Shown piece after piece: positions 5,335-11,087 of a DNA stretch of 64,000 bases. This stretch comes from an uncultured Clostridia bacterium (lineage in GTDB: Bacteria > Bacillota > Clostridia > TANB77 > CAG-508), in contig CAKOYB010000002.1 of NCBI GenBank assembly GCA_934130435.1, positions 115,609-179,608 on the forward strand, read 5' to 3'. How positions within the stretch are numbered: position 1 is the stretch's first letter; each line of letters starts with the position of its first letter. A program made the translations under genes and the position numbers. Under the pieces are notes generated by a model. The model was not told where the DNA came from. It worked only from the letters and a program-made list of their open reading frames with translations, and made no database searches.

Positions 5335-5502
5335 TTTATTCTTTAAATCTTTTGAATAATATATCATATCAGTGCAGTGTAAATTTCCATCCCACAATTC
5401 TTCTTCATAGTTATCAATAAAGAAATTTTTTATTGTTTTTTCATATTTATCAAAACCTTGTTTTGCATAAATAAGTTAAAACAAATAAATCGCCATCTAC
5501 TT
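5335..5502 (-). pseudogene. Decayed duplicate of the 3' end of the queH-GNAT gene (10047-11087). Non-coding remnant.
   Basis: 5341-5373 is identical to 10066-10098 and 5475-5502 to 10379-10406. The intervening sequence is about 85% similar, with an internal deletion of about 190 bp. Confidence 0.65.
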
Positions 5503-5667
5503 ATTTTTCAATATTTTTACAATCCATTCTAAATATTTATACATAAGTTTTTTCAAGTTTTTGCGGTTATAATATATAACCTCCTTAAAACTTTTTTAAG
5601 TATATCATAATATTTAATTTTTTTCTATAAAATTATACAAAAAGGAGCGTATTAGAACTATATTGTT

Positions 5668-6318
5668 TTAATTACATATATTTTTAATATATTGACTAAA
5701 TGCCATTTTTCCATATTTATTATCAAATCTTTCTAATTCTTCTTCATAGCAGCTATCATCCATATACATATCTAGTAATTTATTTTTACCAATCATTTTT
5801 TCAAGAGCTTCTACATATCCCACAATGTCCTTGTAGCATTCATTTAGCCAGTATTGTTTATTTGTTCCATTTTTATCTTGAAATACATATTCTGGTGTTT
5901 TATTATTTATACGTGCCGTAAAATATTGAACAAAGGCTTCTTCTAGTAACATTATATTTATATTTTTATTTAAAACATCAATATATTTCTGAGGAATTTT
6001 TTCAAAACAGCTTCCTTCCTTTTGTATAAAATGAAATAGTTCATGTTCTAATATGTATTTAAATTGAGTATTATCCTTAATCTCTTTAAAAAATACTATA
6101 TATTCTCTTTTACTCGAAGCTTGATATTTACTTTTATTATATTCTTTTTTTATCTCTTTCAATTCTTTAAGTCTATTTAAAATTCTATTTATATACTTTT
6201 CTCCATAAGTTTTATTAAAGTTTTTACAAAATTCAACGATACAGTCTGTTACTCTCTTTTCCCATTTTCTATTCTGATACATTTTTCTAATTTGATTTTC
6301 GATTTCCTCTTCTGGCAT
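5668..6318 (-). CDS. HExxH-motif protein, possible zinc peptidase. Last gene of the radical-SAM cluster.
   Basis: ILEHELFHFIQ motif with downstream acidic residues (EEAF). A strong AGGAGGGAA Shine-Dalgarno. Sits immediately downstream of the candidate precursor peptide. Confidence 0.4.
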   Translation of the reverse strand: MPEEEIENQIRKMYQNRKWEKRVTDCIVEFCKNFNKTYGEKYINRILNRLKELKEIKKEYNKSKYQASSKREYIVFFKEIKDNTQFKYILEHELFHFIQKEGSCFEKIPQKYIDVLNKNINIMLLEEAFVQYFTARINNKTPEYVFQDKNGTNKQYWLNECYKDIVGYVEALEKMIGKNKLLDMYMDDSCYEEELERFDNKYGKMAFSQYIKNICN

Positions 6319-6341
6319 AATATTCCCTCCTATAAATAAGT

Positions 6342-6368
6342 AGAGGAGTACACTATGAATACTCCTCT
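6342..6368 (-). terminator. Hairpin (9-bp stem, 9-nt loop) between the peptide gene and the HExxH gene. Possible attenuator or partial terminator.
   Basis: agaggagta / tactcctct inverted repeat, followed by a T-rich tract on the minus strand. Confidence 0.35.
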
Positions 6369-6381
6369 GTAATCAAACATT

Positions 6382-6456
6382 CTAATCCCTTTTTGGTAAT
6401 CTACTATAATAGCAATAATGACCACAAGCCATTGCAGAAATGATTAATTTTACCAT
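6382..6456 (-). CDS. Unannotated 24-aa peptide MVKLIISAMACGHYCYYSRLPKRD. Candidate RiPP precursor.
   Basis: AAGGAGGTG Shine-Dalgarno 7 nt upstream of the ATG, overlapping the stop of the upstream radical-SAM gene. Two Cys and three Tyr residues. Below the 60-aa cutoff of the ORF track. Followed by a hairpin. Confidence 0.55.
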   Translation of the reverse strand: MVKLIISAMACGHYCYYSRLPKRD

Positions 6457-6468
6457 ATTCTCACCTCC

Positions 6469-9135: not shown

Positions 9136-9152
9136 TGCGTATTTTTTACGCA
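9136..9152. promoter_or_regulatory. Palindromic operator TGCGTA-N5-TACGCA, copy 1, in front of the radical-SAM operon.
   Basis: Near-identical to the palindrome at 9893-9909 (shared TTGCGTA-N5-TACGCATT context). Confidence 0.45.
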
Positions 9153-9185
9153 TTGATATTATTTTTTTAAGAGAGTTATTCTCTC

Positions 9186-9866
9186 CTAAAAAATTTCTAT
9201 ATCATATTCGCCTTTTGTAACAAATTTATATAAATTTGCAGGTCTATGACCTTTTATTGATTGGGTTAATCCTGTATTTTCAATCAAATTTAATGTTAAA
9301 AACTTTTTTCTAAAATTTCTTCTATCAAATTTTTTATCCAAAATCGCTTCATATACCTTTTGCAATTCTGGCAAAGTAAAATATTTAGGCAATAACGATT
9401 TTACAATTGTACTTCTCATTATTTTGTGTTTAATTTTTTCTATTGCCTCTAATAATATTTCTCTATGGTCATAGGCTAAATCCTCTGGAACATCCCTTAA
9501 ATTAAACCATGCTGAATTTTGTGTTTTTTCAGTTTTAGTTTTTATCTTTATATTATCACTATTTACAATTCCTATATATCCAACAGCAATCATTCTCATT
9601 AAAGGAGATCTATTCGGATTACTAAAAGTATGAAATTGTTCTACATATATACCTTCAATACCTGTTTTTTCTAGCATTTCTCTTTTTATTGCAGTTTCGC
9701 AATCCTCATTATTATACACCGCTCCGCTTGGAAGCATCCATTTGTCAGTATAAGGCTTATTGCTTCTTTGAACCAATAAAACTTTTACTTCTCCCTCTTT
9801 TACCGTAAACAATGTACATACAACATGTATTCCTTGATTCTTATATAAAGGATTATTTATATCCAT
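9186..9866 (-). CDS. Nudix-domain protein with a C-terminal winged-helix domain (NrtR-like transcriptional regulator).
   Basis: Degenerate Nudix box GAVYNNEDCETAIKREMLEKTGI. A C-terminal basic wHTH-like region of about 80 aa. Flanked by the operator palindromes. Confidence 0.55.
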   Translation of the reverse strand: MDINNPLYKNQGIHVVCTLFTVKEGEVKVLLVQRSNKPYTDKWMLPSGAVYNNEDCETAIKREMLEKTGIEGIYVEQFHTFSNPNRSPLMRMIAVGYIGIVNSDNIKIKTKTEKTQNSAWFNLRDVPEDLAYDHREILLEAIEKIKHKIMRSTIVKSLLPKYFTLPELQKVYEAILDKKFDRRNFRKKFLTLNLIENTGLTQSIKGHRPANLYKFVTKGEYDIEIF

Positions 9867-9892
9867 ATTATCCTCCGCTATCCATTCTTCAT

Positions 9893-9909
9893 TGCGTACT
9901 TTATACGCA
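9893..9909. promoter_or_regulatory. Palindromic operator TGCGTA-N5-TACGCA, copy 2, overlapping the -10 and +1 of the Nudix-regulator promoter.
   Basis: Inverted repeat with 6-bp arms. Sits directly downstream of a consensus promoter. Confidence 0.45.
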
Positions 9910-9937
9910 TTATATATTAGTAATTTTACTTTGTCAA
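9909..9937 (-). promoter_or_regulatory. Consensus sigma-A promoter (TTGACA, 17-nt spacer, TATAAT) for the Nudix-regulator/radical-SAM operon.
   Basis: Perfect -35 and -10 hexamers with a 17-nt spacer on the minus strand. Confidence 0.55.
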
Positions 9938-10046
9938 TGGTTTGGATATAAAAAATAACAAATACTTTTTTATGGTATTCGTTATTTTTTATATTTCTAT
10001 TAGATTTCTTATATATGTTAGATATTATTTCAATAACTATAATATT

Positions 10047-11087
10047 TTATTTTTTCTTTAAATCTTTTGAATAATATATCATATCAGTACAAACTAATTC
10101 TCCATCCTTTATTTCTTCTTCATAATTATCTATAAAAAAATTCTTAATTGTTTTTTCGTATTTATCAAAACCTTGTTTTACATAGAATGGAATATTATTT
10201 TCTGTTGTTCCAACTATCATCTTTTTATATTTTTGTTTATAGTTATCACATAAATATTTTAGCATTTTTTTAGCATAGCCTTTGCCTCTGTACTTTTCTT
10301 CTGTTGCAATATTTTTTAATTCACATGTATCATTATCTACTTTGGTTACAATAGCAACACAGGCAACTTCATTTTTGTAAGTTAAAACAAATAAATCGCC
10401 ATCTACTAAATACTGTCTAATTAACTTTTCACTTGGATCTGCCTCAAGTAGTAAATTCATATATTGTTCTTTGTTTTCTCTTTCTTTTCTTATAACAATG
10501 CTTCGTTCAACAGGTAAGAATTCAAATCCTTCTGGTAATTTTAGTTCTACTTTATTGTGATCATCTTTTGGAATGCACTCCGAAAAAATGCATCCACAAT
10601 ATTTTTGCATATACAATCCAAGTTCTCTGGCTTTTGCTTGTCCTTCTCTAAATCCCACTCTAAAATCTCTATATAAGAATTTTATATTATATTTTTGAGC
10701 TAGTTGTTCACAAATTCTTTTTAATTCTTCATGTTTTTGATATGGGCTTACAAATAAAGTACTTGTAAAAGCATCATATCCATTTTCTTTTGCATATTTC
10801 ACTGTTTTTTCTAACCTAACCTTATAGCAATAGTTTACACATCTATTTTTCAAGTCATTTATTACATTTTTGCAAAAATTATCTAGTCCATATTCTTCAT
10901 TAAATATAGCCTGTACATTTATTATTTTTGAATATTCTTTTAGAGTGTCTCTTCTTGTTTTATATTCTATATATGGATGTATATTAGGATTGTACCAATA
11001 TAGCACAGGCTCTATTCCTTCACTTCTTAAACTTTCTATGCAATATACACTGCATGGCGCACAACATGTATGCATTAATAATTTCAT
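10047..11087 (-). CDS. queH: Epoxyqueuosine reductase QueH (DUF208) fused to a C-terminal GNAT acetyltransferase domain.
   Basis: N-terminal HTCCAPCS and YNPNIHP motifs of QueH. C-terminal RGKGYAKKML acetyl-CoA-binding motif of GNATs. Confidence 0.6.
   Translation of the reverse strand: MKLLMHTCCAPCSVYCIESLRSEGIEPVLYWYNPNIHPYIEYKTRRDTLKEYSKIINVQAIFNEEYGLDNFCKNVINDLKNRCVNYCYKVRLEKTVKYAKENGYDAFTSTLFVSPYQKHEELKRICEQLAQKYNIKFLYRDFRVGFREGQAKARELGLYMQKYCGCIFSECIPKDDHNKVELKLPEGFEFLPVERSIVIRKERENKEQYMNLLLEADPSEKLIRQYLVDGDLFVLTYKNEVACVAIVTKVDNDTCELKNIATEEKYRGKGYAKKMLKYLCDNYKQKYKKMIVGTTENNIPFYVKQGFDKYEKTIKNFFIDNYEEEIKDGELVCTDMIYYSKDLKKK

What the first reader, a model, noticed from the sequence alone, without database searches (positions are those of the whole stretch)
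5335..10410. Radical-SAM cluster is bracketed by a decayed duplicate of the queH-GNAT 3' end
Positions 5335-5502 repeat the last roughly 350 nt of the queH-GNAT gene (10057-10406). They include two perfectly identical blocks of 33 and 28 nt but carry an internal deletion. The roughly 4.5 kb between the two copies holds the HExxH gene, the peptide gene, both radical-SAM genes and the Nudix regulator. This looks like the scar of an insertion or duplication-recombination event that delivered or rearranged the cluster.
Basis: seen in the sequence. Interest (0 to 1): 0.5.

Follow-up and report, generated by a model that had tools for sequence, protein, structure and literature searches.

The report
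Displaced GNAT remnant at queH integration hotspot
The repeated gene fragment is real: it is the decayed remnant of an acetyltransferase domain once fused to queH and cut off by a mobile element, and the radical-SAM peptide cluster is probably later cargo in that slot.

Summary
Window 5335-5502 is a frameshifted, internally deleted copy of the last ~358 nt of queH-GNAT (10050-10407). It is a two-copy repeat within the window.

The fragment (copy A) is an insertion scar, but probably not of the event that delivered the radical-SAM cluster.

- In a clade of uncultured gut Clostridia, everything between queH and polA is accessory DNA that entered at one point: right after the CGC(I/V)FSE codons of queH (window 10581|10580).
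- A 5.85-kb module with two large serine recombinases and a conserved ~250-290-nt non-coding end (CE) is joined to that point in seven independent contexts. In one of them it cuts an intact GNAT domain off queH.
- The window keeps the first ~150 nt of CE (5497-5647) directly next to copy A.
- The same bracket (queH-GNAT1 ... CE-GNAT2-cdd) holds other cargo in another genome (L093).
- The cluster is a self-contained 4.37-kb cassette (5644-~9990) with a 94% identical copy at an unrelated site (L162). Its two junctions lie inside the bracket and cut older terminators.

This is a new member of a known kind: gene-3'-end integration with accretion. Interest is moderate.

The parts
10581..11087 (-). 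QueH domain of the queH-GNAT fusion gene, up to the recurrent junction after the CGCIFS(E) codons (junction between 10581 and 10580)
   Evidence: Pfam QueH covers residues 3-170, E 6.7e-57. All C-terminal variation among 80 relatives starts right after CGC(I/V)FSE.
10047..10580 (-). Linker plus GNAT1 (beta-type GNAT domain), now fused in frame to QueH. It contains copy B of the repeat (10050-10186 and 10378-10407).
   Evidence: Pfam acetyltransferase domains cover residues 222-314. The repeat is shown. GNAT type is uncoupled from queH-body relatedness.
9991..10079 (-). 89-nt stretch (last 33 nt of GNAT1 including its stop, plus 56 nt downstream) that is 100% identical to two other species (L007, L011). 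It ends inside their terminator hairpin, and this end is the left junction of the cassette.
   Evidence: In L007/L011 the hairpin AAATCTAATA-GAAA-TATTAGATTT is complete. In the window its 3' arm is replaced by cassette DNA.
5644..9990 (-). Self-contained radical-SAM (RiPP-like) cassette: inherited terminator hairpin (9946-9994), promoter, Nudix/NrtR regulator, two rSAM-SPASM genes, precursor peptide, hairpin, HExxH gene plus 24 nt.
   Evidence: 93-94% nt identity to L162 over window 10012-5644, with unrelated flanks there. The same gene set occurs at 73-78% identity in two further kinds of context (L163/164 and L166/167).
9909..9937 (-). Cassette promoter, a perfect TTGACA-17-TATAAT. It is followed by the palindrome TGCGTA-N5-TACGCA (9893-9909). 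A second copy of the palindrome lies at 9136-9152, before the first rSAM gene.
   Evidence: Reading the palindromes as NrtR-type operators is an inference.
9186..9866 (-). Nudix/NrtR-type regulator gene
   Evidence: Pfam NUDIX + NrtR_WHD. NCBIfam TransRepNtr scores below its cut-off.
7856..9118 (-). rSAM-SPASM maturase 1
   Evidence: Pfam Radical_SAM + SPASM. No named NCBIfam family reaches its cut-off.
6469..7821 (-). rSAM-SPASM maturase 2. Gene callers start it at 7746, giving 425 aa.
6382..6456 (-). 24-aa precursor peptide MVKLIISAMACGHYCYYSRLPKRD with a strong ribosome-binding site. A terminator-like hairpin follows at 6342-6368.
   Evidence: The peptide is identical in L162 and differs only at the last residue (D to G) in L163 and L166, with synonymous DNA changes.
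5668..6318 (-). HExxH-motif protein, 216 aa, with no Pfam or NCBIfam family
   Evidence: It has 57 homologues, all next to the same cassette where the context was read.
5497..5647 (-). Remnant (first ~150 nt) of CE, the conserved non-coding right end of a two-serine-recombinase integration module. It includes a promoter-like site (5627-5599) and the palindrome GGTTATATATTATAACC (5557-5581 holds the 25-nt motif).
   Evidence: 86.3% identity over 161 nt to L106 8885-9043, directly downstream of recombinase 2 there. CE is part of the module (97% identical L106/L177). The motif is single-copy in the window.
5335..5502 (-). Copy A: pseudogene remnant of a displaced beta-type GNAT domain (GNAT2). 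It is joined to CE at the microhomology ATGGCGA (5490-5496), carries a 193-nt internal deletion, and is frameshifted.
   Evidence: Intact counterparts in the same position are L093 9469-9975 and L178 12564-13046.
4879..5295 (-). cdd-like deaminase gene. It is linked to GNAT2 as in L093 and is itself accessory.
   Evidence: Most homologues at 74-92% identity lie in other contexts.
4703..4873 (-). Truncated ORF (56 aa) between cdd and polA, another deletion scar
   Evidence: 172 nt (4707-4878) are 100% identical to L114 6477-6648, where the ORF continues.
1990..4689 (-). polA, the conserved right-hand backbone gene of the variable interval
   Evidence: polA follows queH at 0.15 to >10 kb in related species.

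Best explanation
Copy A is what is left of a GNAT domain (GNAT2) that used to be the C-terminal domain of QueH.

In this clade the point just after the CGC(I/V)FSE codons of queH is a specific integration site. It is used by mobile elements whose distal end is a module with two ~560-aa large serine recombinases followed by a conserved non-coding end (CE). Integration cuts the old 3' part of queH (short tail, or linker plus GNAT) away from the gene and leaves it next to CE, where it decays. The QueH body is left joined to a new 3' part, here linker-GNAT1, which the element probably brought in.

In the window this element is degenerate. The recombinase genes are gone, and only GNAT1 on the left and ~150 nt of CE on the right remain. 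The 4.37-kb radical-SAM cassette now fills the interior. It was most likely acquired afterwards by two microhomology joints that replaced the interior, including the recombinase genes.

Shown:
- the repeat;
- the common junction;
- the module-CE-junction linkage in seven contexts;
- a conspecific pair with and without the module;
- the cassette boundaries.

Inferred:
- that the recombinases catalyse the integration;
- that GNAT1 is element-borne;
- the order of events.
For: 1. Common breakpoint. Displaced queH 3' ends start at the same position (...CA|GAAGARGATAGATAT) in 8 loci behind different cargo, and identity to queH falls to background just upstream of it.
2. Occupied versus unoccupied site. 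L106 and L107 are 99.93% identical from that point onward. L107 has an intact queH there, while in L106 the module and CE are joined at that point.
3. CE belongs to the recombinase module. The 5.85-kb unit L106 3303-~9133 is 97% identical to L177, which has different flanks, and the tails diverge right after the junction.
4. Seven module contexts (L106, L177, L171, L174, L178, L188, L189) all join CE to a queH-type tail or linker, each with a different tail. In L178 the joined piece is a complete linker plus GNAT. L188 and L189 lie 2-4 kb upstream of polA-SLT.
5. L093 shows the window's architecture with an intact GNAT2 whose homology runs back to within ~8 nt of the junction, and with PnuC + RhuM/Fic as cargo.
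6. The window keeps L106-type CE (86% over 161 nt) directly next to copy A.
7. GNAT alpha and beta types separate cleanly on GNAT identity (0.79 within type, 0.62 between types). They are intermixed on the queH body (0.723 versus 0.727; matrix correlation 0.25). This indicates swapping at the junction.
8. Cassette boundaries against L162 (94% identity) fall at ~9990 and 5644. They cut a terminator hairpin that is intact in L007/L011 and a terminator/CE edge that is intact in L106, L177 and L188.
Against: - No recombinase gene was found in the 64-kb window.
- In none of the seven module contexts could the left end of the island be reached. queH is not within 5-9 kb to the left of the module, and the left flank is variable cargo. 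The queH|element left junction of a module-bearing island was therefore never seen.
- Recombinase action is inferred from position only.
- The linker starts (the presumed element-side arms) are diverse.
- No conspecific genome of the window organism without the cassette was found, so the order 'bracket first, cassette later' rests on junction anatomy.
- The two exact blocks of 35 and 30 nt between copies A and B are not fully explained. Gene conversion or codon-constrained conservation are both possible.
Confidence: 0.58

Rival explanations
1. One-step delivery. A queH-targeting element that already carried the radical-SAM cassette as cargo (GNAT1 - cassette - recombinase module - CE) integrated as a unit. 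That single event both delivered the cluster and displaced GNAT2, and the recombinase genes were lost later.
For: It uses the same integration model and fits the same site-specificity evidence. Element cargo is highly variable. The cluster is unique to this genome among 80 species.
Against: The cassette's right junction sits exactly where the recombinase-2 terminator stem meets the CE edge in L106, L177 and L188. The cassette therefore occupies the place of the recombinase genes rather than lying beside them. Its left junction truncates the GNAT1 terminator. Both junctions look like illegitimate joints with 3-4-nt microhomology, though they could have formed in an earlier host.
Confidence: 0.2
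2. The cluster's own insertion created the duplicate, for example by Campbell-type single crossover of a circular DNA carrying the GNAT 3' end plus the cluster, or by duplication-recombination.
For: Direct repeats of ~358 nt bracket the cluster. The cluster is absent from related species.
Against: - Against L162, the cassette ends 56 nt and ~140 nt inside the bracket, not in the repeats.
- CE, which is foreign to the cassette, lies between the cassette and copy A.
- The same bracket holds other cargo in L093 and L024.
- Copy A is as far from copy B as from other species' GNATs.
- Intact counterparts of copy A extend back to the queH junction, not just the last 350 nt.
Confidence: 0.08
3. One ancient tandem duplication of the queH 3' part, followed only by homologous-recombination turnover of the cargo between conserved flanks. 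No site-specific recombinase is involved.
For: The GNAT 3' end is highly conserved at nucleotide level, and an 89-nt stretch is identical across species. This suggests homologous exchange does occur here. Most islands lack a recombinase.
Against: - L106 and L107 differ by a recent event at exactly the same breakpoint.
- L106 carries two displaced tails with two junction types.
- 97% identical modules sit next to different host tails.
- All seven module contexts have recombinase genes adjacent to that junction.
Confidence: 0.09
4. Copy A is retained because it is functional, for example as a small protein, a leader, or the promoter region for cdd.
For: A promoter-like site in CE (5627-5599) faces copy A and cdd.
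Against: Copy A is frameshifted and its longest ORF is 26 aa. cdd occurs without it in L105-L107 and L114, and with only 19-27 nt of it in L039 and L097. Remnant length differs in every genome, from full-length down to 31 nt.
Confidence: 0.03

Closest known systems
Dehalococcoides ssrA-specific genomic islands (PMC3146451)
   Same: - Tandem islands sit downstream of one single-copy gene.
- Each is bounded by a direct repeat of the target's 3' end.
- The insertion point is deduced from where the repeats stop aligning to the gene.
- A conserved integration module with a CcrB-type large serine recombinase lies next to the att site.
- Cargo is variable, and some islands lack the module.
   Different: - The target here is a protein-coding gene, cut at a domain boundary.
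- The displaced piece can be a whole ~165-aa GNAT domain rather than 20 bp.
- There are two ~560-aa recombinases, both with a DUF4368 match.
- The module sits at the distal end next to the displaced piece.
- A ~250-290-nt conserved non-coding end is present.
SCCmec-type cassettes with ccrA/ccrB at the 3' end of rlmH (orfX) in staphylococci (from my own knowledge, not tested here)
   Same: - A pair of large serine recombinases.
- Integration at the 3' end of a conserved housekeeping gene.
- Composite arrays.
- Recombinase-less 'pseudo' cassettes that carry cargo only.
   Different: There is no sequence relationship beyond the recombinase superfamily. SCC repeats are ~15-20 bp and leave rlmH unchanged, whereas here the C-terminal domain of the target protein is exchanged.
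Tandem accretion and cis-mobilizable elements at the 3' end of fda (ICESt1/ICESt3, Streptococcus thermophilus) and at tRNA genes (from my own knowledge; tDNA example PMC4891358)
   Same: Serial integration at one gene's 3' end gives arrays of elements separated by att-derived repeats. Many of the elements have lost their integrase.
   Different: Those elements use tyrosine integrases and short identical att cores. Here the recombinases are serine-type and the junction arms are diverse.
Tn4451/Tn5397-type clostridial elements with TnpX/TndX large serine recombinases (from my own knowledge)
   Same: Clostridial hosts, small (~6 kb) elements, and large serine recombinases with the DUF4368 region (Pfam hits).
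   Different: Those elements carry one recombinase and insert at many GA-centred sites. This module has two recombinases and was seen joined only to the queH junction.

Membership tests
Site-specific integrative island at the 3' part of a conserved gene (ssrA-GI / SCC / accretion type) | Independent insertions share one junction in the target gene | tested here: met
   The same breakpoint after CGC(I/V)FSE appears in 8 loci with displaced tails and in 7 module contexts.
Site-specific integrative island at the 3' part of a conserved gene (ssrA-GI / SCC / accretion type) | A copy of the target's 3' part marks the far boundary of the island | tested here: met
   In the window this is copy A. Elsewhere there are displaced tails or GNATs in L005, L012, L013, L015, L020, L024, L041, L043, L093, L106/107, L114 and L178.
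Site-specific integrative island at the 3' part of a conserved gene (ssrA-GI / SCC / accretion type) | A site-specific recombinase is encoded next to the att site | tested here: inconclusive
   Met in relatives: two large serine recombinases lie directly upstream of CE in L106, L177, L171, L174, L178, L188 and L189. Not met in the window, where tblastn with both recombinases found nothing and only the CE remnant is left.
Site-specific integrative island at the 3' part of a conserved gene (ssrA-GI / SCC / accretion type) | Occupied and empty sites exist in otherwise near-identical genomes | tested here: met
   L106 (occupied) and L107/L105 (queH intact) are 99.3-99.9% identical from the junction onward. 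This was not available for the window's own species.
Site-specific integrative island at the 3' part of a conserved gene (ssrA-GI / SCC / accretion type) | The left junction (target gene body joined to the element's left end) is seen in a recombinase-bearing island | tested here: inconclusive
   The left flanks of all seven modules are variable cargo, and queH was not reached within the DNA held. The attempt to walk further failed.
Site-specific integrative island at the 3' part of a conserved gene (ssrA-GI / SCC / accretion type) | Excision to a circle and re-integration catalysed by the recombinase | not testable with these tools
   This needs read-level junction detection or an experiment.
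Duplication made by the cassette's own insertion (Campbell-type or target duplication) | The boundaries of the inserted DNA coincide with the repeat copies | tested here: not met
   Cassette homology to L162 ends at ~9990-10012 and at 5644. The repeats are at 10050-10407 and 5335-5502, and CE lies between the cassette and copy A.
Dispersed repeat / insertion sequence | Multiple copies elsewhere in the genome | tested here: not met
   There are only two copies in the 64-kb window even with 3 mismatches allowed. The rest of the genome was not available.
rSAM-SPASM RiPP gene cluster (cargo) | A short conserved precursor peptide gene next to rSAM-SPASM maturases | tested here: met
   The 24-aa ORF is conserved at protein level with synonymous changes in L162, L163 and L166. 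There are two Radical_SAM+SPASM proteins.
rSAM-SPASM RiPP gene cluster (cargo) | Membership of a named maturase or peptide family | tested here: not met
   No NCBIfam model reaches its cut-off (best 186 bits against a cut-off of 500). The HExxH protein and the peptide have no hit.
Known structured RNA (e.g. preQ1 riboswitch) for the CE element | Match to an Rfam covariance model, or a conserved fold | tested here: not met
   No Rfam hit in the window, in 7 related loci, or in L093's CE. The consensus fold energy is -4 kcal/mol with no real covariation.

The most novel reading that the evidence does not exclude
The queH-targeting elements carry a promoterless linker-GNAT coding segment at their left end. 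Each integration would then splice a new acetyltransferase domain in frame onto the tRNA-modification enzyme QueH and discard the old one. This would be mobile-element-driven swapping of a protein's C-terminal domain. The queH-GNAT 'fusion gene' seen in about 25 species would then be a by-product of element integration rather than an ordinary gene fusion.
Probability: 0.3. Interest if true: 0.6.

Novelty: new member of a known kind. Interest (0 to 1): 0.4.

Why it matters
- It corrects the reading of the locus. The GNAT repeat is not the cluster's own attachment scar, so it cannot be used to delimit the cluster or to infer how the cluster moves. The mobile unit is the 4.37-kb cassette at 5644-~9990.
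- It identifies the queH-polA interval of these uncultured gut Clostridia as an integration hotspot with a defined junction and a recognisable element end (CE plus a two-recombinase module). This gives a handle for finding cargo such as defence genes, RiPP clusters and nucleotide-metabolism genes in metagenomes.
- If the element-borne GNAT idea holds, it would be a clear case of a mobile element repeatedly exchanging a domain of a housekeeping enzyme.

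Tried and rejected
- **preQ1 riboswitch or other known RNA for the palindromic motif and CE.** Rejected: no Rfam match in the window, in 7 related loci or in L093.
- **CE as a structured RNA.** Rejected: consensus fold -4 kcal/mol with no covariation.
- **CE as a decayed copy of queH or GNAT.** Not supported: local alignment scores do not exceed shuffles. The 15-nt resemblance of the CE start to alpha-type linker DNA (ATATTATAACCGCAA) may be chance.
- **The hairpin pair CGAATAC...GTATTCG that flanks the cassette in L162, as cassette ends.** It is found only in L162 and, as the left copy only, in the window. 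Not pursued.
- **Copy A as the remnant of a cassette-linked stand-alone GNAT.** A 152-aa GNAT homologue lies near the cassette in L166/167. Rejected because L162 and L163 lack it, and because copy A is contiguous with cdd as in L093.
- **W/H residues shared by copy A and L093 GNAT2 as proof of orthology.** Downgraded: the same residues occur in several main genes and in the outgroup GNAT. The linkage to cdd and CE carries the argument instead.
- **A strain of the window organism without the cassette.** Exact-protein look-ups for queH-GNAT, cdd and the 625-aa neighbour returned only the same arrangement.
- **Literature.** No paper on queH as an integration site in bacteria, and none on RhuM/YhcG with hotspots. 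One search was rejected on syntax.
- **A 41-nt inverted match of the GNAT-stop region in L106 (4694-4734).** Left unexplained.

Full report
**1. Observation**

All genes here are on the minus strand. In order they are:
- a 625-aa membrane protein (11091-12968);
- queH-GNAT (10047-11087);
- a Nudix/NrtR-type regulator (9186-9866);
- two rSAM-SPASM genes (7856-9118 and 6469-7821);
- a 24-aa ORF (6382-6456);
- an HExxH protein (5668-6318);
- cdd (4879-5295);
- polA (1990-4689).

Window 5335-5469 matches 10050-10184 at 87%. Window 5472-5501 equals 10378-10407 exactly. The exact blocks are 35, 30 and 21 nt long. Copy A lacks 193 nt of the gene, so the two halves read in different frames and no ORF longer than 26 aa remains. 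Both blocks occur only twice in the window, and shuffles gave none.

**2. The locus in relatives**

The same contig exists in ENA (L001, identical). A scan of species-representative genomes gave 80 loci from uncultured gut Clostridia. tblastn with the window's proteins showed three things:
- the radical-SAM genes are in none of the 80 loci;
- queH and polA are backbone genes, and the distance between them varies from 0.15 kb to more than 10 kb;
- only some species have the GNAT fused to queH.

Extra GNAT fragments lie downstream of queH(-GNAT) in L019, L021, L024 (two), L038, L043 (two) and L059. The cargo in these intervals is typical island content: RhuM, YhcG, Fic and PnuC.

**3. Copy A is a foreign or older allele, not a fresh duplicate**

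Its 135-nt block is 86.7% identical to copy B. It is 88.6% identical to L014, 87.0% to L002, 86.9% to L038 and 86.7% to L021.

A search with cdd gave 80 metagenomic loci. Most carry cdd in other contexts. The informative one is L093, which reads queH-GNAT1, PnuC, RhuM/Fic, a conserved non-coding element (CE), a second intact GNAT (GNAT2), cdd, and then polA further downstream.
- L093's GNAT2-cdd stretch is 83.4% identical over 602 nt to copy A plus cdd.
- GNAT2's homology to the fusion gene starts upstream of its first ATG, in the linker. It runs back to within about 8 nt of the end of the QueH domain.

GNAT2 is therefore a queH-GNAT gene that has lost its queH part, and copy A is the decayed form of the same thing. 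In L039 and L097 cdd follows queH with only 19-27 nt of GNAT tail left. These look like deletion derivatives.

**4. One junction**

Among the 80 QueH proteins, everything varies right after CGC(I/V)FSE. The variants are a short tail (EEDRYxKQIxKDK...), a linker plus alpha-type GNAT, a linker plus beta-type GNAT (as in the window), or another domain.

Displaced copies of the tail or linker lie further downstream in L005, L012, L013, L015, L020, L041, L043, L105/106/107 and L114. Aligned to an intact queH, their identity starts sharply at ...CA|GAAGARGATAGATAT and is at background level upstream.

L106 and L107 are 99.93% identical from exactly this point. L107 has an intact queH there. L106 instead has two large serine recombinase genes, a terminator and CE.

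**5. CE is the end of a recombinase module**

The 5.85-kb unit L106 3303-~9133 contains a sigma-70 region-4-like gene, small ORFs, DUF6870, recombinase 1, recombinase 2 and CE. It is 97% identical to L177, which has different flanks, and the two sequences diverge right after the junction.

Copies at ~74% nt identity (recombinases 74-76% identical) occur in L171/172/173, L174/175/176, L178-187, L188 and L189. In every context CE is joined at the same point to a queH-type tail that differs from context to context:
- L106: NKQIMKDKG*
- L177: SKQITKDKISQ*
- L171: SKKIEKDKLKR*
- L174: VKKKKDSLNLPEGFEW...
- L188: RKKIEKDKEK*
- L189: QKQIQKDKE*

In L178 the joined piece is a complete alpha-type linker plus GNAT. 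L188 and L189 lie 2-4 kb upstream of polA-SLT. The right flank of L171 is the L004 island (88-95% identity), and part of the right flank of L174 matches the L019 island (78%). So these modules sit in queH-polA islands.

The left flank of the module is variable cargo, and queH was never reached. This resembles islands with a conserved integration module next to one att site and variable cargo beyond it, as described for Dehalococcoides ssrA islands (PMC3146451).

CE has no Rfam match, no conserved fold and no significant similarity to queH or GNAT.

**6. The window**

Window 5647-5490 is 86.3% identical to L106 8885-9043, which is the first ~160 nt of CE. CE is joined to copy A at the microhomology ATGGCGA (5490-5496). 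This fits a deletion that removed the rest of CE, the junction and the first third of GNAT2 from an L093/L178-like precursor. A second 193-nt deletion lies inside copy A.

In gene orientation the window therefore reads: QueH | linker-GNAT1 | 56 nt | cassette | CE (5' part) | remnant of GNAT2 | cdd | truncated ORF | polA.

**7. The cassette**

HExxH homologues always sit in the same unit: regulator, two rSAM-SPASM genes, peptide, HExxH. Where the flanks could be read, the unit lies in unrelated contexts.

L162 is 93-94% identical to window 10012-5644 and unrelated beyond.
- On the left, the cassette brings the terminator of L162's upstream gene. It is joined (...GAAATAT|AAAAAATAACG...) inside the GNAT1 terminator hairpin, which is intact in L007 and L011. 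Those two species share an 89-nt exact match with the window that ends at this joint.
- On the right, it is joined (...ACGCTCC|TTTTTGTATAAT...) between the recombinase-2 terminator stem and the start of CE, as seen intact in L106, L177, L188 and L189.

Both joints have only 3-4 nt of possible microhomology. Because both joints cut features of an older island, I infer that the GNAT1 ... CE-GNAT2 bracket existed before the cassette came, and that the cassette replaced the island's interior, including the recombinase genes. I cannot exclude that this happened in a previous host and that the whole element then integrated as one unit.

**8. Is GNAT1 element-borne?**

Two GNAT copies, each joined at the same junction (one to queH, one to CE), are what a reciprocal recombination between queH|linker-GNAT2 and a circular CE|linker-GNAT1 would give.

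Consistent with this, GNAT alpha and beta types are cleanly separate by GNAT identity (0.79 within type, 0.62 between types). On the QueH body they are intermixed (0.723 versus 0.727; matrix correlation 0.25). The left junction of a recombinase-bearing island was not seen, so this step remains an inference.

**9. Cargo details**

- The cassette has a perfect sigma-70-type promoter (9937-9909).
- It has two TGCGTA-N5-TACGCA palindromes, one at the promoter and one before the first rSAM gene.
- The 24-aa peptide is conserved at protein level and is followed by a hairpin.
- No named family reaches its cut-off for any of the cassette's proteins.

**10. Verdict**

The repeat is real and is a scar, but of integration at a queH hotspot rather than of the cluster's delivery. 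The kind of system is known: integration into the 3' part of a conserved gene, with accretion and decay. The target (a domain boundary in queH-GNAT), the element family and the possible domain swapping are new members or variants of that kind.

Noticed in passing
window 5644-9990 (peptide 6382-6456; palindromes 9893-9909 and 9136-9152): The radical-SAM cassette looks like an unnamed RiPP system. It has a 24-aa two-Cys precursor (MVKLIISAMACGHYCYYSRLPKRD) that is almost invariant across homologues with 75-94% identical DNA. It also has two rSAM-SPASM enzymes, an HExxH protein with no family, and a Nudix/NrtR-type regulator with two matching palindromes. No NCBIfam or Pfam family names it.
   Followed up: partly
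window 5497-5647; L093 9195-9431; L106 8885-9133; L188 11680-11990: CE is a ~250-290-nt conserved non-coding element at the end of the two-recombinase module. It contains a promoter-like site and the palindrome GGTTATATATTATAACC. It has no Rfam match and no conserved fold, and its role (att arm, outward promoter) is unknown.
   Followed up: partly
window 9991-10079: An 89-nt exact match to two other species (L007, L011) spans the GNAT stop codon and 56 nt of spacer, while the adjacent coding DNA is only ~77-84% identical. This suggests recent exchange with a crossover in the conserved GNAT 3' end.
   Followed up: partly
window 4703-4873: A 56-aa ORF between cdd and polA is the 5' part of a longer gene. 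172 nt are 100% identical to L114, where the ORF continues, although the neighbouring cdd genes are only ~88% identical (protein). This is another deletion and mosaic scar.
   Followed up: partly
L082-L161 (cdd homologues): The cdd-like deaminase gene occurs at 74-92% protein identity in many contigs. Only about 7 of these 80 loci have queH next to it (L093, L097, L105, L107, L114) or polA downstream (L106), so the gene itself appears to be mobile or accessory.
   Followed up: no
L027, L030, L045, L056, L076 (queH genes): A third kind of QueH C-terminal extension (~100-170 aa, ...NKITERKIRLGWEVPNLEL...) starts at the same junction. In the one example scanned (L027) no Pfam domain covers it.
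   Followed up: no
L002-L081, between ruvB and queH; window 11091-12968 and upstream: The interval upstream of queH is also variable. Different sets of large multi-pass membrane proteins of ~450-625 aa (the window's 625-aa member has no Pfam family), and a protein resembling family-2 glycosyltransferases, lie between ruvB and queH in different species.
   Followed up: no
L162 1798-1819 and 6044-6069; window 9946-9994: In L162 the cassette is flanked by two similar hairpins (CGAATAC-N8-12-GTATTCG). The window keeps only the left one. It is unclear whether these are just terminators or are related to the cassette's mobility.
   Followed up: partly
L166 11467-11925, L167 6733-7191: A stand-alone 152-aa GNAT, 69% identical in DNA to the window's GNAT domain, lies ~0.8 kb from the cassette in a distant genome. 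This may be coincidence or an older association.
   Followed up: partly
L047, L057, L061, L064, L072, L075, L080, L081: Contigs labelled Candidatus Saccharibacteria or Nanosyncoccus carry queH genes 72-79% identical to this Clostridia gene, in a different and mutually conserved synteny. This could reflect mis-binning or transfer.
   Followed up: no
L106 4694-4734: A 41-nt inverted match (90%) to the window's GNAT-stop region (10015-10054) lies inside the recombinase module.
   Followed up: no
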